29,094 nucleotides of DNA from a virus (taxonomy: Duplodnaviria; Heunggongvirae; Uroviricota; Caudoviricetes), in IMG/VR virus record IMGVR_UViG_2778261543_000004, positions 1-29,094 of that record. One strand, given 5' to 3'. Each line of letters starts with the position of its first letter. Position 1 is the first letter of the stretch. The notes under the pieces were generated by a model. That model saw only the letters and a program-made list of their open reading frames with translations, was not told where the DNA came from and did not search any database. Of the stretch, positions 1,591 through 29,094 are shown in pieces. Made by a program: the position numbers and the translations under genes.

Positions 1591-1740
1591 TTCATTCATA
1601 GTGCAGGGATTAAAATCATTCCCACTCAATTATTTACGGCATATATAACCAATTGACTGGTAACAAATTTATAAGTCAAATTTTTCACCGTACCGTTTTA
1701 TATACCGTCACCGGAAATCAGTACCATGGAAAATGCCATG

Positions 1741-2223
1741 TCACCGGGTCAGTGAATCGTACTGCTTTTCACAGACTCGTCCGGCTTCGGCGGCCCGGTC
1801 AGCGTACTCTGCCAGTTGTCGGTTTCGCTCGAGAGATTTGCTGAGCACGTCGGCAAGCAAAACTCCGGTGTCTGCGGCTGACGTCCCAGCGCCGACAGTG
1901 GCGTTATACTGCCTGAGCTGCTCACGGATGGCAACGAGCTGTTGCTGCAACCTGCCAGCACGAGCGGCAGCATCAAGAGCATCATTACGCGCCTGGTCGA
2001 TCCTCTGCTGCGCTTCACGTTCATTGGTCGCTTTCTCCTGTTCGTCATGCTGACGAGCTTTCTCATCTTCGGCTTTGCGGTCTGCCTTTGCCTGCGCATA
2101 CCCGGCGTCGTACTGTCGATCGCCGTGAGCATTCCAGGCAATCCTGCAGCCGATCACCAGAGCAGCAAGCATCATCACGATAAACAACTGTTTCCAGTAC
2201 GCTTTAACGAATGCCCGGATCAT
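1741..2223 (-). CDS. Phage i-spanin (Rz-like lysis protein)
   Basis: N-terminal transmembrane helix then long Q/R/A/E-rich coiled coil; start overlaps the endolysin stop (ATGA); last gene of the lysis cassette. Confidence 0.75.
   Translation of the reverse strand: MIRAFVKAYWKQLFIVMMLAALVIGCRIAWNAHGDRQYDAGYAQAKADRKAEDEKARQHDEQEKATNEREAQQRIDQARNDALDAAARAGRLQQQLVAIREQLRQYNATVGAGTSAADTGVLLADVLSKSLERNRQLAEYADRAAEAGRVCEKQYDSLTR
1749..1985 (-). CDS. Putative o-spanin (Rz1-like lipoprotein) embedded in the Rz frame
   Basis: Alternative frame inside Rz beginning MMLLMLPLVLAGC (lipobox LAGC), with a Pro/Ser-rich mature part; embedded layout as in lambda Rz/Rz1. Confidence 0.45.
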   Translation of the reverse strand: MMLLMLPLVLAGCSNSSLPSVSSSGSITPLSALGRQPQTPEFCLPTCSANLSSETDNWQSTLTGPPKPDESVKSSTIH

Positions 2224-2849: not shown

Positions 2850-3132
2850 GCTGGGACCTCGTTATCTTGAAGATTTGAACCACGTTCCCTTTTGTCTTGA
2901 TGAGAGCAGCCAGGAACACAGCTTTGATGATGACTTCTGACCAGTCGGCGCTGACGTAGTACCCGTAGAACGTTCGGATAGGTACGCTGGCAGCCACGAC
3001 GATCAGCAGGTAGGCGAGCCATCCACCCCACCAGCGATGGCGTGACCCGTCACGGCGGAATAGCAGGACTCGGATTGCAATGCCGCCGCAGATAGCGGCG
3101 TTCAGGATGAGAAGCAGTTCAGGACTGGTCAT
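2839..3132 (-). CDS. Holin
   Basis: 97-aa protein with hydrophobic helices and a charged C-terminus, immediately upstream of and overlapping the endolysin. Confidence 0.7.
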   Translation of the reverse strand: MTSPELLLILNAAICGGIAIRVLLFRRDGSRHRWWGGWLAYLLIVVAASVPIRTFYGYYVSADWSEVIIKAVFLAALIKTKGNVVQIFKITRSQHGH

Positions 3133-8373: not shown

Positions 8374-8379
8374 AGAAAA

Positions 8380-8408
8380 GGCCGCTAGAGCGGCCTGTGA
8401 CATGTCAC
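8380..8408. terminator. Hairpin plus GTGACATGTCAC palindrome between convergent genes
   Basis: GGCCGC-taga-GCGGCC hairpin (8380-8395) adjacent to GTGACATGTCAC (8397-8408); T-tract lies on the - strand (TTTTCTTTAT), so it best terminates the - strand small ORF. Confidence 0.65.
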
Positions 8409-8415
8409 GCTCACG

Positions 8416-8556
8416 TTATGACAAGCCTATGTACCCTGCTACACCAGATAATATCAAAATAACTGCAACAGCAAATTCACCATCACCAATGATACATTTA
8501 CGGTTCATAACGCCAAGTGCAATAAGCGCAAACACAACAAGAATAAAAGCAATCAT
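8416..8556 (-). CDS. Small two-helix membrane peptide (46 aa)
   Basis: ATG at 8556 with AAGGA RBS; translation MIAFILVVFALIALGVMNRKCIIGDGEFAVAVILILSGVAGYIGLS verified by hand; followed by palindrome and terminator. Below the 60-aa ORF-track cutoff. Confidence 0.45.
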   Translation of the reverse strand: MIAFILVVFALIALGVMNRKCIIGDGEFAVAVILILSGVAGYIGLS

Positions 8557-8628
8557 TTCTCATCCTTATTGCGGAGTGACATCCTGCGGTCGCCACCAGT
8601 ATGTCTGGTTAAACTCTTTCTTCGAACG

Positions 8629-11040
8629 TTACTCCATTTTACGCAAATAACCTGGTGAAAAATACTCCTGCATCTGGTTAAATATCATATGATCGAGAGC
8701 CGCCTTCAAGTACCAGAGATTCGCACCTGGCATCAGCCCCTTCCCCAGCTTAACCATATCACCACCAGTCTGCTCATTCTTCCCTTCCACAGCATTTAAC
8801 GGTATGCCCTGAGCTATCTTAACGATATCATCAACAAGGCCTGCCACCGGACCAAGCATCGACGCCAGCGCGCCGCTTCCGTACCTAGTGTGATCTGACA
8901 ATAAAAAGTCACCGTAAAGGCCAAGACCACCACCTTTCAGTAGAGCACCAAGCCAAAATTTAGCAGCATCTTCTCCTGTCATCTCGCGAGGATTACGACC
9001 AGACGCAAGGTCGTTAAGTTGCTGCGACAAAGCGCCAAGAATGGTCGTACTGGCAATAAACGTCGCAATATATGCCGCACGCCCACCAGCAGACGGCATA
9101 CCCATAGCGCGTGACCAGTGACGCATAACCACCGAGATAGGGAACGATTTAAACAGGAAAACACTTCTCGTTAATTCACCCTTCCATGTTCCACGCTGAA
9201 TACCAGAACCGGTTATCAATTGCTCACGCGCGCCAGGTGTAATAACAGCCATATCAACTTCTTCAGTTACGGCACCGAGCAGTTTACGCATTGCCTCAAA
9301 TTTCACACGTTCAGGCTCACCAAGATGTTTAACTGCTGAATCAGGGATACGCATAATGCTTTCCGGTGTCAGCATCGTATTATTGCCGTTCCCCCAGTCC
9401 TCCTGTTGTGCCAGCTTCCATACGCTCCAGTCTGTTTCAGTAATCCCTTTGCTTTTCAGGATACGAAAATCAGAGTCATCGAGGCTACGAAGGTCTGGTG
9501 TCCGTGACACTACTTCTCCCAGGCTTCCCATCATTGTTACGCCATAGGCGCGCTTGTGCGCATCTGACCATGCTGTAAGTCCACTGGCACGCATTACCGC
9601 CGTTGCCGCCCAACGAGACACAGACGGCCCCATATTATCCATCGCCCAGCGGTTAACGCTGCCAAGTAGAGATTCCATCGCCAGACCAGCGCGGCGCGCC
9701 CGCGCAAGCTCAGTACGATTCGTTGGGTCCATAGCTTCAAGCTGGTTGCGAAATAACTGGTTCATTGGAAGGTTGGTAACCTTCGCAGACAGATACATGG
9801 TTCCAAGATCAGAGAACGATGACAGCAACGCGGATCCGAGTCTGCTGGCAACCAGCCAGTTGCGGATATTGTCAGACCATCGCGCGATGTGCGGATTCGC
9901 TACAGGCTGTGTCTTTCCGGAAATAAAGTTGTACAGATTCTCTGTGTTGTTCGCCAGCCGCTCGACTTTACCGGTTTTACTCGGGTTAGCTGTTGCCGTT
10001 TCTGCCTTAACCTGATCAAGAAGGGAGCGGAAAACATGATCGGGGTTTGGACCATATGTTTCCACCAGAGCAATATCTTTACTGATACCTTCCAGGTGAC
10101 CGACCATGATTTCCCATAGAGAGCGATCGCCATAAAGTTGTTGATATTGGAGATAGGAATCTGCATCTTTGAAATGTATCTGTCGTGATGCATTACCACG
10201 GTTAGCACGTGCGCCGGAAATTCGCATTCCTGTATCAGTAAGCTTATTCAGCCCACCAGTAGCGATCGTGTTATAAGCCTCTCCAAGAAATGCAGACAAC
10301 TCGGCATCGTTCATCAGTTGTCCATCGGCTCGGGTATAATATTTGCGATCCAGCTTACCTATAACATCGCTAACCCACTTATCCTTTGATACCGCCCCAA
10401 CCTTTTCCATAGAATGATGTTGAGGGATCCCCCAGTTTTCGAGATAGCCAATGTCCCCACCAGCATCATTAAACCGGCGGCGCAGCAGCTCTGTAACTTC
10501 TCTCCACGCCTTAGCACCTTTTCTTGCTTTAGCATTGCCAGTATTTTGCCCCCGCATTTCATATACCAGGTCACGTACGCCCGCTTCATCTTCAAACAGA
10601 CCAAAAAAGCGAGGATCAACTGCTTCGAATGCCTCCTGCAATTGACTCAATGCATAATCACGGGTAGCTTTTGTTCTGGATTCAACAGAGAGGAAATTAG
10701 ATTTACCGTCTGCATTAAAAGCTATAGTACGGTTAAGAGCGCCAAGTTTCCCATCAGCCCCTTGATAGCTATTGATAAATTTATCCAATCTCTGACGCGC
10801 GGCTATAGTGAGAGCCACACGACGTTTCTTTAATGTCGCTTCTCGCTGTAATTCTTCAGATGCCAATTGTGCTGCTCGATATAGCCGCTCTGATTCGGAA
10901 AGTTGTCGCCACGACATCGGGTCATCACGAGCAATGGAGCGCATATTTCGATAAATGCGGTCTTCAATGTTCTGTATTTCTCGCGCCGTTAACGTGCGCT
11001 GCGCCGCCTGCTGGACCGCTTGTATACATTCCTGTCTCAT
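8629..11040 (-). CDS. Internal virion / ejection protein (T7 gp16-like position)
   Basis: 803 aa; GAGAGG RBS; last large gene of the internal-protein block before the tailspike. Confidence 0.6.
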   Translation of the reverse strand: MRQECIQAVQQAAQRTLTAREIQNIEDRIYRNMRSIARDDPMSWRQLSESERLYRAAQLASEELQREATLKKRRVALTIAARQRLDKFINSYQGADGKLGALNRTIAFNADGKSNFLSVESRTKATRDYALSQLQEAFEAVDPRFFGLFEDEAGVRDLVYEMRGQNTGNAKARKGAKAWREVTELLRRRFNDAGGDIGYLENWGIPQHHSMEKVGAVSKDKWVSDVIGKLDRKYYTRADGQLMNDAELSAFLGEAYNTIATGGLNKLTDTGMRISGARANRGNASRQIHFKDADSYLQYQQLYGDRSLWEIMVGHLEGISKDIALVETYGPNPDHVFRSLLDQVKAETATANPSKTGKVERLANNTENLYNFISGKTQPVANPHIARWSDNIRNWLVASRLGSALLSSFSDLGTMYLSAKVTNLPMNQLFRNQLEAMDPTNRTELARARRAGLAMESLLGSVNRWAMDNMGPSVSRWAATAVMRASGLTAWSDAHKRAYGVTMMGSLGEVVSRTPDLRSLDDSDFRILKSKGITETDWSVWKLAQQEDWGNGNNTMLTPESIMRIPDSAVKHLGEPERVKFEAMRKLLGAVTEEVDMAVITPGAREQLITGSGIQRGTWKGELTRSVFLFKSFPISVVMRHWSRAMGMPSAGGRAAYIATFIASTTILGALSQQLNDLASGRNPREMTGEDAAKFWLGALLKGGGLGLYGDFLLSDHTRYGSGALASMLGPVAGLVDDIVKIAQGIPLNAVEGKNEQTGGDMVKLGKGLMPGANLWYLKAALDHMIFNQMQEYFSPGYLRKME

Positions 11041-22354: not shown

Positions 22355-22647
22355 TCCTGTTCACTGGCCTCTTTGGCCATCTTCAAATACTGTTCAGGGC
22401 AATGCGCCATAACGCGCTGAAACAGTTCCAGCGCCAGATTGCGTTGCCCCTCATTAAATGCCATTGCCATAGCGTCCATCGGTGAGATAGCGGAAAACAC
22501 ACGGCCTTTCTCCAGCACCGACCAGACAACGCGACGCCCCTGTTCACTGCTCATGACAAAGCGAATGTCATCAATTTCACGCTGTGCCATGTCACGTTGC
22601 TTACGGGCGTTTTCTTCTTTCAGTTGATCGTCTTCGTAATCTGTCAT
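22351..22647 (-). CDS. Hypothetical small protein
   Basis: 98 aa, start overlaps the portal stop and stop overlaps the scaffold start (ATGA at both ends). Confidence 0.55.
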   Translation of the reverse strand: MTDYEDDQLKEENARKQRDMAQREIDDIRFVMSSEQGRRVVWSVLEKGRVFSAISPMDAMAMAFNEGQRNLALELFQRVMAHCPEQYLKMAKEASEQE

Positions 22648-24970: not shown

Positions 24971-25047
24971 TGTGGCATTAGCTCAGTCGGACAGAGCAAC
25001 CGCCTTCTAAGCGGTTGGTCGCAGGTTCGAATCCTGCATGCCACGCC
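24971..25047 (+). tRNA. tRNA-Arg (anticodon UCU, reads AGA)
   Basis: Folded by hand into a cloverleaf: acceptor GTGGCAT/ATGCCAC, D-arm GCTC-AGTCGGACA-GAGC, anticodon arm ACCGC-CTTCTAA-GCGGT, T-arm GCAGG-TTCGAAT-CCTGC, discriminator G and encoded CCA. Confidence 0.9.
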
Positions 25048-25091
25048 AGAATCACGCCTAAGGACCGTGATGCCAGAAGTTCCAGGGGCTT

Positions 25092-25133
25092 GGCGGTGAT
25101 GGTTTCCCTTGAAGGACTATCACCGCCCTTTTT
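25092..25133 (+). terminator. Hairpin plus T-run after the tRNA
   Basis: GGCGGTGAT...ATCACCGCC stem followed by CTTTTT. Confidence 0.55.
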
Positions 25134-25211
25134 ACAGCAGGACGCCATTGCGATGACTTCATGCTGTAAACCCGTACAGCCACGGAAGGCATAACTCATT
25201 GCTTCCAGTTC

Positions 25212-25235
25212 GCCCGGTTCGCCGGGCATTTTTTT
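25212..25235 (+). terminator. GC-rich hairpin plus T7 run immediately upstream of the 25247 RBS
   Basis: GCCCGG-ttcg-CCGGGC followed by ATTTTTTT, ending 1 nt before the AAGGTGAG RBS. Confidence 0.55.
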
Positions 25236-25246
25236 AAGGTGAGATT

Positions 25247-25618
25247 ATGAACGACAAGCAAATCGAAAAAGAAATCGTTGAGAAAGGCAAAACGGCACCG
25301 CGCGTTACGCCAGACCATATCGAAGGCATTATTGCTCAGGAGGCATATTTCACAGCAGAAGATGGTGCCTTTGGCAAAGCCATAAAAGCGAAACATACTG
25401 GCGGAGAGGTAAACTACCAGCCGCACGAATCACTTTCTCTGCTGACGTTCTGCGTCCTGGTGCTGCGCAACGGCTTCACCGTCACCGGAGAGAGCGCCTG
25501 TGCAAGCCCGGAAAACTTTGATGCAGAAATTGGTCGGAAGATTGCCCGGCAGAATGCTGTAAACAAAATCTGGATGCTCGAAGGTTACTTGCTGAAGCAG
25601 AAGCTAAGCGAGCAATAA
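25247..25618 (+). CDS. Small phage protein, possibly of the N4 gp49 / Sf6 gp66 family (moron)
   Basis: 123 aa, RBS AAGGTGAG; opposite strand to the packaging operon; stop followed by GTGACATGTCAC and an intrinsic terminator. Family assignment from memory of a motif (TGESACASPENFDAEIGR), unverified. Confidence 0.65.
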   Translation: MNDKQIEKEIVEKGKTAPRVTPDHIEGIIAQEAYFTAEDGAFGKAIKAKHTGGEVNYQPHESLSLLTFCVLVLRNGFTVTGESACASPENFDAEIGRKIARQNAVNKIWMLEGYLLKQKLSEQ

Positions 25619-25638
25619 CACCGTGACATGTCACAAAC

Positions 25639-25665
25639 AGCCAGCCGATGAGCTGGCTTTGTTTT
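25639..25665 (+). terminator. Rho-independent terminator after the 25247 gene
   Basis: AGCCAGC-cgatga-GCTGGCT followed by TTGTTTT; 4 nt downstream of the 12-bp palindrome at 25623-25634. Confidence 0.75.
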
Positions 25666-25708: not shown

Positions 25709-27184
25709 TTAAGCATAGGGATCGTAATCTGTGATGGCCTTGCCTTGCTGGTTCTGCTGCCCGGGAATTCGCAGACGCTTCGACACAGGGAACGCAAACG
25801 TCAGCAGTAGCGCATCGCCTTTACCAGGCGAACGCCCAAGCCGCTCCTTGATATCTTCCTTCGGTTCGATAACGATTTTACCGTCCACTCGAACTTTGTA
25901 CTCTGCCGCCGACAGATCGTCCGCTGTTTCCTGGTCATCCAGCATCCCGCCCAGCCTCAGCCATGTCTTGCATGAGTTGAACATCTCCCCACGCTTGTTG
26001 AGCATCTGCTGGTCAGTAGACGCGCCACCGAACGGAACAAGTTGCCATGTGCGCCCCCAACCGTCACCGATTGACTTCAGACCGGTACCGTAACCAAAGT
26101 CGATGAACACTGCGTCAGCCTGATACAGGTCTTCAAAGTCAGCGATACGCTTCGCCATAATCAGATCGTCGGTAGTCTTGTTGCCAGTCCACAGCACCTT
26201 ACTGTGTAGCCCCTGCCGCAGGTATATCACCGCGTCATCAACGCCTGAATATGCCGGGTCAACACCGATTATCACCGGAGCATGCGCCACCTGCGCAGCG
26301 GTTACCACCCGTTTCATTGCCTCATCAGTAAGACCGGTAGGGATAAACTGCAATTCAGATGCATCAGGGAATATGCCGCGCACACGGATTTTAACGAAGT
26401 CGCTGTCTTCCCCGTAGTCATCAACCCATTTCTGCAACTGCTGTTTGTTAGTGCCTTCCACCGTCCGGCTGTCAATCTGTGCAGTTTTCCAGCGGTGTTT
26501 ATATTTGCGGAAACATTCGCGGAAACGCCCGGTGTTACGTGTCGGATTTCCGAACGCCACCCAGATAATCTCAGTGTCTTCGTCCGTAAGCGCACCCTCA
26601 GCAACTTCCCACACCAGATCCGCAATGTTCGACGCTTCATCGAATACCACGATGATGCGTTTGCGCTCGTTGTGTAGTCCGGCGAATGCCTCAGTGTTGT
26701 GCTCAGACCAGGGGATTGCGTCAGCTCGCCACCGCTTGTCGTGTCCAGGATCATTGCTGTACATCGCGGTAGCGGTACAGGTAAACCAGTCTTTCGTGAT
26801 AGCAAGGTTCGACCACTTGATAATTTCCGGCCAGGTCTTCGTTCGTAGCTGGTTGTCGGTGTTGGCGGTCACCACGACCTTACAATCCTCGCAAGTGGAC
26901 ATGCCCCAGTTGATCAACATTGAGATGAATGCTGATTTACCAATACCGTGACCAGAAGCGCGTGCCAGCATAAGCGGCTGATAGCGCGTCTCCGGATTCT
27001 GCAGGTGATCACGTATCTCTCGGAACGCATCAGCCTGCCACTGACGTGGGCCGGTGGCATGTGCCAGTTCAGTCCCCTCTTCCCCCCACGGGAACGCATA
27101 GAGGGCATAGCCAAGCGGATCGTGAGTGAACCCTGCAATATCCTCGATCAACTGCTCTTCAGGAGATAACGCTGTATCTGTCAC
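25709..27184 (-). CDS. Terminase large subunit
   Basis: 491 aa with N-terminal ATPase features (Walker A-like SGHGIGKS, Walker B-like IIVVFDEAS) and C-terminal nuclease-like region (IIGVDPAYSG...); start overlaps the terS stop. Confidence 0.85.
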   Translation of the reverse strand: MTDTALSPEEQLIEDIAGFTHDPLGYALYAFPWGEEGTELAHATGPRQWQADAFREIRDHLQNPETRYQPLMLARASGHGIGKSAFISMLINWGMSTCEDCKVVVTANTDNQLRTKTWPEIIKWSNLAITKDWFTCTATAMYSNDPGHDKRWRADAIPWSEHNTEAFAGLHNERKRIIVVFDEASNIADLVWEVAEGALTDEDTEIIWVAFGNPTRNTGRFRECFRKYKHRWKTAQIDSRTVEGTNKQQLQKWVDDYGEDSDFVKIRVRGIFPDASELQFIPTGLTDEAMKRVVTAAQVAHAPVIIGVDPAYSGVDDAVIYLRQGLHSKVLWTGNKTTDDLIMAKRIADFEDLYQADAVFIDFGYGTGLKSIGDGWGRTWQLVPFGGASTDQQMLNKRGEMFNSCKTWLRLGGMLDDQETADDLSAAEYKVRVDGKIVIEPKEDIKERLGRSPGKGDALLLTFAFPVSKRLRIPGQQNQQGKAITDYDPYA

Positions 27185-27777
27185 TGATTACCATCCTGAC
27201 GTTCTTTGAGTCGCTTCCTGGCTGCCGCTATGCGATCAGCAATTGTCACATTCACATTAACATCCAGGCGTTCTTTGAATGCGTTGACGTCGACGTGCTT
27301 ACCAATCAGTTCGAGGTTCTTCACCTTGTCAGGCCATTTAATTTTTTTGAGGATTGTCTCTATCGAATCCTCGTTCATGTTCATGATGGTCGATGACAGA
27401 TCAAAGCCACTAAGCGTAGTGCGCCAGATTTTCGGCCACTCACTGATTGGTTTAAGGCTCCCATCGTCGTTGAGGATATCGATCACGTCCATCTGGTCGA
27501 TCTCCACCAGGCGCATGAGAACGTAATCAGCACTGACGCGCATTCGTTTGTTGCGCTCCTCCATCAACTCGGCAATCCGTTTTTGAATGCGTTCATCGCG
27601 CATCATGACACTGGCTTTAACTGCCGCTGTATTTGGGGAGAATCCTGCGTTAATCGCTGCCTGAGTCTGGTTTTCAGGCGTTTTGATGTATGACTGGCAA
27701 TAAGCCTCCTGCATTGCTGTGAGCGGCTTAAATTGCGTTGATTTGCGTTTATAGGTTTTAGGTTCAGCAGGCATCAT
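27181..27777 (-). CDS. Terminase small subunit
   Basis: About 198 aa from ATG 27777/27774 (GGTGG RBS); the first 26 codons of the listed ORF are probably not translated; directly upstream of and overlapping terL. Confidence 0.65.
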   Translation of the reverse strand: MMPAEPKTYKRKSTQFKPLTAMQEAYCQSYIKTPENQTQAAINAGFSPNTAAVKASVMMRDERIQKRIAELMEERNKRMRVSADYVLMRLVEIDQMDVIDILNDDGSLKPISEWPKIWRTTLSGFDLSSTIMNMNEDSIETILKKIKWPDKVKNLELIGKHVDVNAFKERLDVNVNVTIADRIAAARKRLKERQDGNQ

Positions 27778-27786
27778 AACCACCAT

Positions 27787-27813
27787 GGTAATAGTTACCG
27801 TTGTGGTAATAGT
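27787..27813. repeat. Tandem direct repeats GGTAATAGT (x2) just upstream of terS
   Basis: GGTAATAGTTACC at 27787 and GGTAATAGTACCA at 27805, flanked by CCATGG and CCATGC; lie between the terminator and the terS start. Confidence 0.5.
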
Positions 27814-27820
27814 ACCATGC

Positions 27821-27846
27821 AAAATAAAGCCGCCATAGTTGGCGGC
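27821..27846 (-). terminator. Rho-independent terminator upstream of the packaging operon
   Basis: GCCGCCA-acta-TGGCGGC followed on the - strand by TTTATTTTG; about 45 bp before the terS start. Confidence 0.7.
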
Positions 27847-27887
27847 AGTATTCAAAACCCGTCAAATTCATCATGCATAATCTACTC

Positions 27888-27899
27888 GTGACATGTCAC
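27888..27899. repeat. 12-bp perfect palindrome GTGACATGTCAC (third copy)
   Basis: Identical to copies at 8397-8408 and 25623-25634; overlaps the stop codon of the zinc-ribbon gene and sits ~40 bp before the terminator. Confidence 0.8.
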
Positions 27900-28243
27900 A
27901 CTATTAATTTCGTTTCATGCCAGCCTTTAGTCACCCAGCATTGCGAGTCACCATTACACGGGCATGAATTAACAGGAACTCTCTCGCCGCACTTACCGCA
28001 ACGTTTTCTACTGATCGATTTTATACGCCCGCGCACACGTGCATCATCCTGGCGGATCAGCAGCGCGATGTACTCGGCCATTTCATAGGGATCGCGACCA
28101 GGGCGCCGGGCGGCGCAGTTCCGCGCCAGCATTTCCTGCTCCTGCTTATCCAGCACCAGTTCAATTTTGCGCTCACCGGCGGCGGACTGCCGAGCGCGCT
28201 GCGCGGATTTGCGTTCTGCGGGGGATTTAGCCACGAATCGCAC
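27896..28243 (-). CDS. Cys4 zinc-ribbon small protein (possible regulator)
   Basis: C-terminal CGKCGERVPVNSCPCNGDSQCW motif (C-x2-C-x8-C-x-C); basic N-terminus. Start uncertain: GTG at 28243 (115 aa) or ATG at 28132 with strong AGGAG RBS (78 aa). Confidence 0.55.
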   Translation of the reverse strand: MRFVAKSPAERKSAQRARQSAAGERKIELVLDKQEQEMLARNCAARRPGRDPYEMAEYIALLIRQDDARVRGRIKSISRKRCGKCGERVPVNSCPCNGDSQCWVTKGWHETKLIV

Positions 28244-28349: not shown

Positions 28350-29094
28350 TACTTCACCTCCTGCGGCGGTTCTGGTAGAGGCATCCAGTGAGTTACGTCA
28401 TCCAAGATATTTCCTGATAAATACGTGAAAGCTCTATATTTTTTGTAATCAATTGGATTTACAACCCAGTTCCAATATGCGGCCACGATTTCACCTTGAC
28501 TAAATGCCAGTAACATTTTGGTGTCTTCCGGCATTCGCTCACTACAGCTTATCCAACCATCCGGAGTTACCGGATAGTTGCCAGCCAGTCTACGCAAAAC
28601 AGCCTTAACCGCCTCAATACGGTCATCATCGCAATTTTCCAGCGTATCTATGCGGTCGAGCATGATGATGGCGTTATCAATATCAGGATTGCCGGTCCAC
28701 TCATTACCGCGATTGGATTCGGCAGCCTGGTTGCCGTGTACTGTTTGATTCTCGGCTTTACCCAGTCTGTCATCGCTGCATGAATACCCTTCCAGCCAGG
28801 CCAATGCTTGTCGCATGAAATATGCAATATGTTTGCCGTGGTAATCGTCTTCATCTATGTGAAAAGCGATACTGCGAATGTATTCAATTGCATTTTCAAT
28901 AGCCTCCAACGCTATCGGCGCTGGCGGCGCAGCGAATAGATATCCGCCAAAATCAGGAAGCTCTCCAATGGCCTGTACGAACTTTTGTTTGCCTACGTCA
29001 ATTCCTAATGGGTAGTGAGCTATAATCTTTGCCACTGGCTCTGCTTCCAGCGATGCCAGTGCAATTCGTGCCAGTTCTTCCGCTTCTTCTGCTG
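28349..29094 (-). CDS. Phage protein with C-terminal DUF551-like domain (5' end outside window)
   Basis: C-terminal segment DGWISCSERMPEDTK...THWMPLPEPP matches the DUF551 pattern as I recall it; the frame stays open upstream of the GTG at 29035 to the window edge. Confidence 0.6.
   Translation of the reverse strand, partial: AEEAEELARIALASLEAEPVAKIIAHYPLGIDVGKQKFVQAIGELPDFGGYLFAAPPAPIALEAIENAIEYIRSIAFHIDEDDYHGKHIAYFMRQALAWLEGYSCSDDRLGKAENQTVHGNQAAESNRGNEWTGNPDIDNAIIMLDRIDTLENCDDDRIEAVKAVLRRLAGNYPVTPDGWISCSERMPEDTKMLLAFSQGEIVAAYWNWVVNPIDYKKYRAFTYLSGNILDDVTHWMPLPEPPQEVK

What the first reader, a model, noticed from the sequence alone, without database searches (positions are those of the whole stretch)
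25619..25665. 12-bp perfect palindrome GTGACATGTCAC occurs three times, always just after a stop codon and next to a terminator
Identical copies lie at 8397-8408, 25623-25634 and 27888-27899. A given 12-mer is expected about 0.003 times in 29 kb, so three copies cannot be chance. Each sits 0-25 nt downstream of a stop codon (46-aa peptide, 123-aa gene, zinc-ribbon gene) and within 0-40 nt of a strong hairpin. The element therefore marks the 3' boundary of three small accessory cassettes. It could be a dimeric-protein operator, an RNA 3'-end processing or stability element, or a recombination signature by which morons are exchanged.
Basis: seen in the sequence. Interest (0 to 1): 0.72.

Follow-up and report, generated by a model that had tools for sequence, protein, structure and literature searches.

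The report
Binding site of phage RHH regulator
The thrice-repeated 12-base palindrome is real and is most likely the DNA docking site of a small, so far uncharacterised phage regulator whose gene ends inside one of the copies; the same protein-plus-site pair recurs in several unrelated phage groups, always at gene boundaries.

Summary
In detail: GTGACATGTCAC occurs exactly at 8397, 25623 and 27888, each 0-7 nt after a stop codon and 0-41 nt before an intrinsic terminator. The window is an epsilon15/phiV10-like podovirus (Uetakevirus). The 12-mer is invariant at the same three places in E. coli, Salmonella, Klebsiella, Citrobacter, Rahnella and Erwinia relatives while the flanks diverge.

The decisive result is that the motif GTGAC-NN-GTCAC travels with one gene, the 115-aa ORF at 27896-28243 (-), whose TGA stop lies inside copy 3. 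Sequences with this gene held 51 sites in 642 kb (0.64 expected); sequences without it held 0 in 602 kb. Homologues at 32-39% identity in N15-like, P2-like, ZF40, Vibrio and Aeromonas phages carry the same half-sites. In 171 of 177 loci from three lineages a site overlaps the gene's own stop codon in the same register.

The protein models confidently (pLDDT 94) as a ribbon-helix-helix DNA binder with a C-terminal Cys cluster. The palindrome is therefore best read as this regulator's operator. Terminator adjacency is specific to this phage group. The direction of regulation is unknown; a roadblock or boundary role is inferred. The half-sites equal those of host matS, but spacing and protein differ. 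The RNA-element and recombination readings are not supported.

The parts
27888..27899 (.). Palindrome copy 3 (site A). Overlaps the TGA stop of the regulator gene and lies 41 nt upstream of the terminator that separates the early-right operon from terS.
   Evidence: The same register is found in 78 of 80 related viral contigs.
25623..25634 (.). Palindrome copy 2 (site B). Lies between the stop of the reverse-oriented cargo gene and the terminator behind terL.
   Evidence: Conserved as a hairpin-plus-12-mer unit in relatives, while the cargo gene varies.
8397..8408 (.). Palindrome copy 1 (site C). Lies between the last gene of the head-tail operon and its terminator.
   Evidence: Conserved in epsilon15, phiV10, SPN9TCW and ST11-OXA245phi3.2.
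27896..28243 (-). Candidate binding protein: 112-115 aa, with a basic N-terminal helix, a ribbon-helix-helix core and a C-terminal CxxC...C...C cluster. It belongs to the epsilon15 gp49 / N15 gp46 family (phrog_536).
   Evidence: Co-occurrence with the motif.
27829..27846 (-). Intrinsic terminator hairpin (GCCGCCAACTATGGCGGC followed by TTTATTTT) downstream of site A.
25639..25658 (+). Intrinsic terminator hairpin (AGCCAGCCGATGAGCTGGCT followed by TTGTTTTATC). It terminates the cargo gene and is weaker in the terL direction.
   Evidence: Annotated as a terminator in phiV10.
8379..8396 (-). Intrinsic terminator hairpin (AGGCCGCTCTAGCGGCCT followed by TTTCTTTATG) abutting site C.
3042..3053 (.). 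Additional site with intact half-sites (GTGACCCGTCAC) inside the holin-region coding sequence. Its status is uncertain.
   Evidence: The same variant occurs in Kp4865-1, but not in epsilon15 or phiV10.
1733..1744 (.). Degenerate copy (GTGACATGGCAT on the phage-forward strand) overlapping the stop codon of the Rz-like spanin at the end of the lysis operon.
   Evidence: The equivalent is seen in epsilon15 at 26618 and in SPN9TCW at 26725.
25247..25618 (+). Reverse-oriented cargo gene (Pfam Phage_gp49_66, Sf6 gp66-like) whose stop lies 4 nt before site B.
   Evidence: At least six different genes occupy this slot in relatives.

Best explanation
The palindrome is the core of a symmetric 14-bp operator, Y-GTGAC-NN-GTCAC-R. 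It is recognised on duplex DNA by the phage's own small ribbon-helix-helix / Cys-cluster protein, encoded at 27896-28243 (-).

The protein would bind as a dimer, or as two dimers on two inverted 7-bp units. In this phage the operators are placed at the 3' ends of three transcription units:
- Site A: on the regulator's own stop codon, ahead of the terminator in front of terS.
- Site B: behind the cargo gene next to terL.
- Site C: behind the last head-tail gene.

Sites B and C have no promoter next to them, and in other lineages the site lies between a stop codon and the next gene's ribosome-binding site. The most likely action is therefore on transcription crossing gene or operon junctions. 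The bound protein would act as a roadblock or boundary that limits or gates read-through. At site A this would be self-limiting, and at B and C it would reinforce the terminators against convergent transcription.

Shown here: the motif, its conservation, its symmetric flank preference, its strict co-occurrence with the gene, and the RHH fold. Inferred: that this protein binds the site, and the sign and mechanism of the effect.

My split: protein-site pair about 0.7. Given that, roadblock/boundary about 0.4, antitermination or activation of the downstream late operon about 0.3, other about 0.3.
For: 1. Conservation. The 12-mer is exact at the three equivalent sites in epsilon15 (about 80% DNA identity), SPN9TCW, Klebsiella phages and 12 Enterobacterales prophages. 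Flanks fall to background within a few bases.

2. Variants at true sites change only the central dinucleotide (GTGACACGTCAC, GTGACAGGTCAC, GTGACCTGTCAC).

3. Co-occurrence. 24 gene-bearing sequences (642 kb) hold 51 GTGAC-NN-GTCAC sites (0.64 expected), and each has at least one. 29 gene-less loci (602 kb) hold 0 (0.57 expected).

4. Independent lineages carrying homologues at 32-67% identity also carry the motif:
- ZF40 myovirus: 3 exact copies, one starting 2 nt after the homologue's stop.
- N15: 3 copies.
- Yersinia P2-like phage: 1 copy.
- Vibrio K303: 3 copies.
- N15-like contigs: 105 sites in 49 loci (0.8 expected).
- P2-like contigs: 50 sites in 48 loci (0.7 expected).
- Two of three further distant members have a site within 21 kb in total.

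5. A site overlaps the gene's own stop codon in the same register (G|TGA|C) in 78 of 80, 49 of 49 and 44 of 48 loci of three lineages.

6. The Aeromonas phage homologue goes with three identical copies of the asymmetric GTGACCGGACAC, each 1-2 nt before an SD and ATG, one of them before the homologue's own start.

7. Position -1, which was not in the search pattern, is a pyrimidine in 97-100% of half-sites on both sides in all lineages.

Against: - No binding experiment exists, and none could be run here.
- Co-occurrence is partly inflated by shared ancestry within each lineage. The number of truly independent lineages is about six.
- One site is physically part of the gene's 3' end, so that site alone would co-occur trivially. 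The argument rests on the additional dispersed sites.
- No curated RHH family is matched at threshold.
- Foldseek on the first, poorer model found nothing.
- One distant member showed no site, though only 1.6 kb was available.
- Sites B and C lie away from any promoter, which is unusual for RHH operators.
- Three prophages lack site B altogether, so at least that site is dispensable.
- The sign of regulation cannot be derived from sequence.
Confidence: 0.7

Rival explanations
1. The palindrome is a site for a host protein. The prime candidate is MatP, whose matS site (GTGAC-RNY-GTCAC, consensus GTGACATTGTCAC) differs from the phage element by one central base. The phage would be using or subverting chromosome-organisation machinery.
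Against: The spacer is 2 bp in all 300-plus sites seen and never 3 bp. True matS sites are absent from these phages, and a published survey found prophages avoid them (PMC3603311). A host factor cannot explain why the motif is present only in phages that carry the gp49-like gene and absent from gene-less relatives infecting the same hosts, nor why it sits on that gene's stop codon.
Confidence: 0.05
2. The palindrome acts in RNA. It would be a small hairpin just after the stop codon that stabilises or processes the 3' end, or that cooperates with the terminator.
For: Every copy in the window is transcribed between a stop codon and a terminator hairpin on the terminator's strand. The stop codon lies in or next to the motif at many sites.
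Against: As RNA the 12-mer folds at -1.2 kcal/mol with z = -0.03 against shuffles, and it pairs differently at each of the three copies. Strict sequence conservation without covariation and a symmetric flank preference point to duplex recognition. The Aeromonas variant GTGACCGGACAC cannot form the hairpin, yet it is repeated three times. In other lineages there is no adjacent terminator. Rfam finds nothing.
Confidence: 0.06
3. The palindrome is a recombination signature: a short shared sequence, or a site-specific recombination site, through which accessory cassettes (morons) are swapped.
For: The junction between conserved and variable DNA lies within about 5 nt of the motif at sites A and B. 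At least six different cargo genes end 4 nt from site B. Four different arrangements follow site A: a 70-aa gene, its remnant, nothing, or a LexA-controlled umuD-like gene.
Against: No recombinase co-occurs. A 12-bp perfect palindrome has no polarity, and three copies per genome would invite deletions and inversions. Sites also lie inside genes (N15 repA, ZF40 gp08 and gp12) and in front of start codons in other lineages. The motif tracks a DNA-binding protein rather than cassettes. Boundaries next to functional cis-elements are expected in mosaic phages anyway. The motif may still serve as microhomology, as a by-product.
Confidence: 0.07
4. The palindrome is a DNA-packaging recognition (pac) element bound by the small terminase.
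For: Sites A and B bracket the terS-terL operon. In Vibrio phage K303 a site lies 31 nt before terS.
Against: Three dispersed copies would give three initiation points. N15 has cohesive ends at its record termini, and P2-like phages are also cos phages (my own knowledge), yet their sites lie far from the genome ends and the terminase genes, at the regulator gene, in repA and near the antirepressor operon. Structural relatives with related terminases lack the motif.
Confidence: 0.03

Closest known systems
matS / MatP (E. coli Ter macrodomain organiser)
   Same: Inverted GTGAC / GTCAC half-sites. The phage 12-mer equals the matS consensus GTGACATTGTCAC minus one central base. The binding protein contains a ribbon-helix-helix module and binds as a dimer.
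   Different: The spacer is 2 bp, not 3 bp, in every site. The element sits on phage genomes at gene boundaries, not in the chromosomal terminus region. The associated protein is not a MatP relative by sequence (hhalign probability 0.14-0.3%), and in the fold search MatP is merely one RHH hit among many (rank 22). It also has no four-helix bundle or coiled coil, but a Cys cluster instead.
Omega repressor / RHH ParB of plasmid pSM19035 and its WATCACW heptads
   Same: RHH dimers each read a 7-bp unit containing TCAC, and bind tightly to two adjacent units in direct or inverted orientation (PMC9499535). TGTGACA.TGTCACA can be read as two inverted heptads with the same 7-bp spacing.
   Different: Omega sites are arrays of 7-10 heptads overlapping promoters of a Firmicute plasmid. 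Here there are single inverted pairs at gene 3' ends in phages of Gammaproteobacteria. The unit sequence differs (YGTGAC versus WATCACW). There is no partition ATPase partner in Uetakevirus.
Classical RHH repressor-operator pairs (Arc, Mnt, CopG, MetJ, PutA, AmrZ, TA antitoxins)
   Same: A small dimeric RHH protein with a short palindromic operator. The autoregulatory placement next to its own gene is seen at the 5' end in the Aeromonas phage. The fold match is strong.
   Different: There is an extra conserved basic N-terminal helix and a C-terminal CxxC...C...C cluster. In three lineages the operator overlaps the gene's own stop codon rather than its promoter. Additional operators lie next to terminators, between convergent genes or inside genes.
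SlmA-binding site (GTGAGTACTCAC)
   Same: A 12-bp perfect palindrome with the same outer GTGA...TCAC (PMC3020112).
   Different: The inner four bases differ (GTAC versus CATG or NN-flanked C/G). SlmA is a TetR-family host protein. Binding was not tested, and a host factor does not explain the link to the phage gene.
Lambda Q and other late regulators encoded at the end of the early-right operon
   Same: The gene is the last one of the early-right operon, directly before the late (terS) operon. Its cis-site lies just upstream of a terminator that separates early from late genes. In the Pseudomonas structural relative UFJF_PfDIW6 a Q-like gene lies near the end of the early-right operon, ahead of the lysis and terminase genes.
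   Different: No sequence or fold similarity to Q. The site is not embedded in a convincing promoter; the only match, GTGACA-18-CATGAT, is at chance level. N15 has both Q and this protein.

Membership tests
matS site (MatP target) | 13-bp motif GTGAC-RNY-GTCAC, i.e. a 3-bp spacer | tested here: not met
   All sites have a 2-bp spacer. No N3 version occurs in the window or in Uetakevirus relatives. The consensus was verified in PMC3603311 and PMC8669397.
matS site (MatP target) | Bound by MatP | not testable with these tools
   Needs EMSA or ChIP. The associated phage protein is not a MatP homologue (hhalign probability 0.14% and 0.3%).
matS site (MatP target) | Clustered in the chromosomal Ter macrodomain | tested here: not met
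   The sites lie on phage and prophage genomes. The Klebsiella prophage sits next to guaA/guaB.
Ribbon-helix-helix DNA-binding proteins (Arc/MetJ/CopG superfamily) | Beta-strand, helix, helix fold | tested here: met
Ribbon-helix-helix DNA-binding proteins (Arc/MetJ/CopG superfamily) | Match to a curated RHH sequence family | tested here: not met
   No Pfam or NCBIfam hit at threshold. Only sub-threshold RHH-clan hits in 6 of 58 distant members.
Ribbon-helix-helix DNA-binding proteins (Arc/MetJ/CopG superfamily) | Dimer binds a short symmetric or repeated operator | not testable with these tools
   The site is a symmetric 14-mer with a symmetric flank preference and co-occurs with the gene. Binding itself was not measured.
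Intrinsic (rho-independent) terminator | G+C-rich hairpin followed by a T-tract | tested here: not met
   The palindrome alone folds at -1.2 kcal/mol, z = -0.03. The real terminators are separate neighbouring hairpins, and their sequences differ between the three sites.
Known structured RNA families (Rfam) | Match to a covariance model at the gathering score | tested here: not met
   The only hit in the window is a tRNA at 24972-25045.
Cassette recombination sites (integron attC-like) | Associated site-specific recombinase, and an imperfect, longer palindrome at the cassette 3' end | tested here: not met
   No recombinase is linked to the sites. The only integrase belongs to the attP module. 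The element is a 12-14 bp perfect palindrome that also occurs inside genes and before start codons.

The most novel reading that the evidence does not exclude
The regulator is not a conventional promoter-level repressor. It would be a DNA-bound boundary factor that acts on elongating RNA polymerase at the ends of transcription units. By sitting on its own stop codon and beside terminators, it would gate read-through between operons (early to late, late to cargo). That would make it a phage counterpart of roadblock-type terminator or antiterminator proteins, with a built-in self-limiting site conserved in register across podo-, sipho- and myoviruses.
Probability: 0.25. Interest if true: 0.75.

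Novelty: new variant of a known kind. Interest (0 to 1): 0.58.

Why it matters
- **Function for an unannotated family.** The work gives a concrete, testable function to a small, widespread but unannotated phage protein family (epsilon15 gp49, N15 gp46, ZF40 gp22; phrog_536). It also names that family's cis-element.
- **Regulation of model phages.** epsilon15, phiV10 and SPN1S-type phages are used as structural and diagnostic models, but their regulation beyond the repressor/antirepressor switch is unknown.
- **Unusual operator placement.** The operator overlaps the regulator's own stop codon in a fixed register in three unrelated phage lineages, and further operators sit beside terminators between convergent genes. 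This suggests control of transcription across gene boundaries rather than at promoters, which is rarely documented in bacteria.
- **Variable cargo slots.** The sites coincide with the slots where these phages carry variable cargo genes, so the factor may insulate essential operons from such cargo.
- **Possible host cross-talk.** The half-site identity with host matS raises a cheap-to-test question of cross-talk with chromosome organisation.
- **Possible tool.** A compact 14-bp operator with a 115-aa binder could also be a useful synthetic part.

Tried and rejected
- **epsilon15 'repressor' sites.** The epsilon15 record's annotated protein-binding features are a different motif (TTACC...GGTAA, also at window 27778-27815), not the palindrome.
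- **Genome-end idea.** phiV10's record starts inside the third copy. This is only because the record was opened at the last gene's stop codon.
- **CopG and Arc.** This test was insensitive.
- **Sequence searches for the protein.** PDB, Pfam and NCBIfam gave no family.
- **Leader-peptide/attenuator idea.** The 8-codon ORF after copy 3 is a deletion remnant of a 70-aa gene present in relatives, and it is frameshifted in 8 loci.
- **Promoter inside the palindrome.** GTGACA-18-CATGAT is at chance level and is not conserved in other lineages.
- **Hairpin plus roadblock as a substitute for the missing U-tract.** Considered and dropped, because a polymerase stalled by a protein at the motif would stop before the hairpin is fully transcribed.
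- **Literature.** Full-text searches for the 12-mer, its variants, and the gene in epsilon15, phiV10 and N15 papers found nothing relevant.
- **Host genome.** I could not scan the E. coli chromosome for a 12-mer with the tools available.

Full report
**Observation.** GTGACATGTCAC occurs exactly at 8397-8408, 25623-25634 and 27888-27899. Allowing two mismatches there are six matches against a shuffle mean of 1.08, and none of 100 shuffles reaches six. It is the only 12-bp perfect palindrome that repeats in the window. Reading the sequence together with the ORF list gives the following:
- Copy 1 lies 7 nt after the stop of a 46-aa ORF on the - strand.
- Copy 2 lies 4 nt after the stop of a 123-aa ORF on the + strand.
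- Copy 3 contains the TGA stop of a 115-aa ORF on the - strand.

Consensus scans find an intrinsic terminator next to each copy: 8396..8379 (-), 25639-25658 (+) and 27846..27829 (-). On the terminator's own strand the order is always stop codon, palindrome, hairpin, with gaps of 0, 4 and 41 nt.

**What the window is.** The window matches phiV10, epsilon15 and other Uetakevirus podoviruses, in reverse orientation relative to the GenBank records. In phage orientation the three sites are:
- Site A: after the last gene of the early-right operon (epsilon15 gp49 family), ahead of a terminator and the terS promoter region.
- Site B: between terL and a reverse-oriented cargo gene (Pfam Phage_gp49_66).
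- Site C: between the last small gene of the head-tail operon and reverse-oriented genes in front of the tailspike.

The 'repressor' sites annotated in epsilon15 are a different motif. phiV10's record happens to be opened at the stop codon inside the third copy, which there carries one mismatch. This says nothing about physical genome ends.

**Conservation.**
- The 12-mer is exact at all three equivalent places in epsilon15, which is only about 80% identical in DNA. It is also exact in SPN9TCW and in Klebsiella phages.
- A scan of one genome per bacterial species with terL returned 36 loci. All 12 Enterobacterales prophages carry the exact 12-mer. None of the 24 more distant terL relatives carries it or any substitute repeated palindrome.
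- Vibrio and Pseudomonas phages that share the structural module also lack it.
- Flanks diverge immediately outside the motif.
- Where true sites vary, only the central dinucleotide changes (AC, AG, CT), so the constraint is GTGAC-NN-GTCAC.
- At site B the conserved unit is terL stop, hairpin, 12-mer. The gene beyond it differs between prophages (at least six different genes) but always stops about 4 nt from the motif. Three prophages lack the whole hairpin-plus-motif unit.
- At site A the motif persists even where another small gene is interposed between the regulator gene and the site. What follows it is variable: a 70-aa gene, its remnant, nothing, or a LexA-box plus umuD-like gene.

**The key result: the motif travels with one gene.** The ORF ending in copy 3 belongs to phrog_536, 'transcriptional regulator', and has no Pfam or NCBIfam family.
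- By tblastn it is present in all 17 palindrome-bearing loci fetched at that point and in none of the palindrome-less ones.
- Homologues also occur in unrelated phages, and these carry the same half-sites:
  - Pectobacterium myovirus ZF40 has three exact TGTGACATGTCACA, one starting 2 nt after the homologue's stop.
  - N15 has three GTGACTGGTCAC, one overlapping the gene 46 TGA.
  - A Yersinia P2-like phage has GTGACGCGTCAC overlapping the homologue's TGA.
  - Vibrio phage K303 has three GTGACRCGTCAC.
- Over everything fetched by then, gene-bearing sequences hold 51 sites in 642 kb (0.64 expected from composition) and every one has at least one. Gene-less loci hold none in 602 kb (0.57 expected).
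- Viral-contig scans extend this:

| Lineage | Loci | Sites found | Expected | Site on the gene's own stop codon |
|---|---|---|---|---|
| Uetakevirus-like | 80 | 134 | not computed | 78 of 80 |
| N15-like | 49 | 105 | 0.8 | 49 of 49 |
| P2-like | 48 | 50 | 0.7 | 44 of 48 |

- In these three lineages, at 32-39% protein identity, the site overlaps the gene's own stop codon in one and the same register: the first G is the last sense base and the TGA lies inside the motif.
- An Aeromonas phage homologue lacks the perfect motif. Its genome has three identical copies of the asymmetric GTGACCGGACAC, each 1-2 nt before a Shine-Dalgarno sequence and a start codon, one of them before the homologue's own gene.
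- Two of three still more distant family members have a perfect site within 21 kb in total.
- Position -1, which was not part of the search pattern, is a pyrimidine in 97-100% of half-sites on both sides in all lineages. The element is therefore a symmetric 14-mer, Y-GTGAC-NN-GTCAC-R.

**The protein.**
- The family is small: 205 clusters at 50% identity among 1.84 billion representatives.
- The architecture is conserved: a basic N-terminal helix (AERK-AQR-R), a short strand, two helices, a long linker helix and a CxxC...C...C cluster. R11, R16, E57, L62, C82, C85, P90 and C102 are nearly invariant.
- Distant members give sub-threshold Pfam hits to RHH-clan families and to zinc ribbons.
- I therefore take the RHH fold as established by structure comparison, although no curated sequence family is matched. 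Zinc binding is inferred from the Cys pattern only.

**Interpretation.** The simplest account of a strictly conserved, two-fold symmetric 14-mer that appears only in genomes encoding one dimeric-fold DNA-binding protein, and that is anchored to that protein's own gene, is that it is this protein's operator.

The RNA alternative is weak:
- The 12-mer alone folds at -1.2 kcal/mol, no better than shuffles.
- It pairs differently at each copy.
- There is no covariation.
- The Aeromonas variant cannot form the hairpin.
- Rfam finds only a tRNA in the window.

The host-factor alternative is attractive at first sight. The half-sites are those of matS (GTGAC-RNY-GTCAC), and the phage 12-mer is the E. 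coli matS consensus minus one base. However, the spacer is never 3 bp, a published survey found prophages avoid matS, and a host factor cannot explain the dependence on the phage gene. By profile comparison the protein is not a MatP relative, and in the fold search MatP is merely one RHH hit at rank 22.

The recombination reading is not supported as a primary function. No recombinase is associated, the core has no polarity, and sites occur inside genes. Still, the motif does lie exactly at junctions between conserved and variable DNA, and it could act as microhomology as a by-product.

**How it might work.** This part is inference.
- Sites are strongly enriched at gene boundaries. An ORF stop lies within 12 nt at 68 of 75 Uetakevirus, 34 of 48 N15-like and 32 of 34 P2-like unique sites, against 18-23% of random positions. 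A start codon with an SD follows within 30 nt at 20 of 48 N15-like, 4 of 7 K303-like and 4 of 4 Aeromonas sites, against 9-15%.
- A site lying between a stop codon and the next gene's ribosome-binding site leaves no room for a promoter. Sites B and C in the window have no promoter-like sequence nearby.
- This argues for action on polymerase that is already transcribing: a roadblock or boundary. At site A it would limit read-through from the early operon once the regulator has accumulated. At B and C it would back up terminators that are strong in one direction only. The T-tract is on the cargo side at B and on the late-operon side at C, and the motif occupies the other side of the hairpin.
- An alternative is that the protein gates the terminators positively. 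The gene sits where lambda-type phages keep Q, and no late regulator is annotated in the epsilon15 or phiV10 records.
- In N15 one site lies about 25 bp upstream of the -35 hexamer of a strong promoter-like element reading into the antirepressor operon. Promoter-level effects are therefore also possible in some contexts.
- Sequence alone cannot decide the sign of regulation.

**Comparison with known systems.**
- By kind, this is an RHH regulator with a short palindromic operator.
- A good structural precedent is the omega repressor of pSM19035, where RHH dimers each read a 7-bp unit containing TCAC and bind tightly to adjacent pairs. TGTGACA.TGTCACA has the same 7-bp geometry.
- It differs from described RHH systems in three ways: the added N-terminal basic helix and C-terminal Cys cluster, an operator that overlaps the gene's own stop codon in a fixed register across three phage lineages, and further operators beside terminators and inside genes.
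- Full-text searches found no description of the motif, its variants or the protein. That library is incomplete, so earlier mention in subscription journals cannot be excluded.

**Verdict.** The 'terminator-linked' and 'cassette boundary' descriptions are true for this phage group but are not the essence of the element. The RNA and recombination options are not supported. I rate the protein-site pairing at about 0.7 and the boundary/roadblock mechanism at about 0.25-0.3 overall. Interest is moderate to fairly high: this is a new, easily testable regulator-operator pair with an unusual 3'-end placement and a curious identity of half-sites with host matS.

Noticed in passing
window 24972-25048 (+): A tRNA-Arg (anticodon UCU) lies just upstream of the reverse-oriented cargo gene, on the same strand. 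It overlaps the mechanical ORF 24978-25229 (-), which phiV10 annotates as hypothetical protein p04, so that CDS annotation is doubtful.
   Followed up: partly
window 27852-27878 (-): An 8-codon ORF (MHDEFDGF*) with an SD-like sequence lies directly after copy 3 and ends 5 nt before the terminator. It looked like a leader peptide. It is in fact the remnant of the 3' end of a 70-aa gene (ending ...FYDEFDGL*) that sits after site A in about 25 related loci. Eight loci carry a 1-nt deletion that destroys it.
   Followed up: yes
window 1733-1744: A degenerate copy (GTGACATGGCAT in phage orientation) overlaps the TGA stop of the Rz-like spanin at the end of the lysis operon. The equivalent is seen in epsilon15 (26618) and SPN9TCW (26725, GTGACATGTCAT). 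It may be a decayed or weak fourth operator.
   Followed up: partly
window 3042-3053: GTGACCCGTCAC, with both half-sites intact, lies inside the holin-region coding sequence. The same variant occurs in Klebsiella phage Kp4865-1, but not in epsilon15 or phiV10. It is unclear whether it is functional.
   Followed up: partly
window 22584-22595: A one-mismatch copy (GTGCCATGTCAC) lies inside the gp5-like gene and is conserved at the same place in phiV10 (5306) and in a Citrobacter prophage. It is probably kept by coding constraint.
   Followed up: no
window 27778-27815 and 27181-27855 (-): Repeats of the TTACC...GGTAA type, which epsilon15 annotates as repressor sites, lie between the terminator and terS, and no sigma-70-like promoter is detected there. 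The longest terS ORF, like phiV10's annotated start, begins at a TTG just upstream of the terminator hairpin. The ATG near 27771, which matches epsilon15's start, is more plausible.
   Followed up: partly
L005 12709-12760; L012 and L013 8954-9010; L018 8953-9010; L019 9009-9060: In Klebsiella, Pseudocitrobacter, Erwinia and Citrobacter werkmanii relatives, a promoter with a LexA box (CTGT-N8-ACAG) is inserted immediately after site A. In Klebsiella phage ST11-OXA245phi3.2 the gene in this slot is annotated as UmuD-like.
   Followed up: partly
L050 (N15) 28489-28561: The N15 copy GTGACTGGTCAC (- strand) lies about 25 bp upstream of the -35 hexamer of a strong promoter-like element (TTGACG, 18 nt, TAGAGT) reading into the antirepressor operon. 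Uetakevirus site C also neighbours an antirepressor gene in some relatives (phiV10 p23; ST11-OXA245phi3.2 8540-9229).
   Followed up: partly
protein P0308: A 1245-aa protein in the representative library matches the N-terminal (RHH) part of the family profile in 12 separate stretches. This suggests a tandem array of the module in one polypeptide.
   Followed up: no
L235 504-1258: In a short metagenomic contig, a distant family member lies directly upstream of a Phage_antitermQ gene, so the two regulators can be neighbours rather than alternatives.
   Followed up: no
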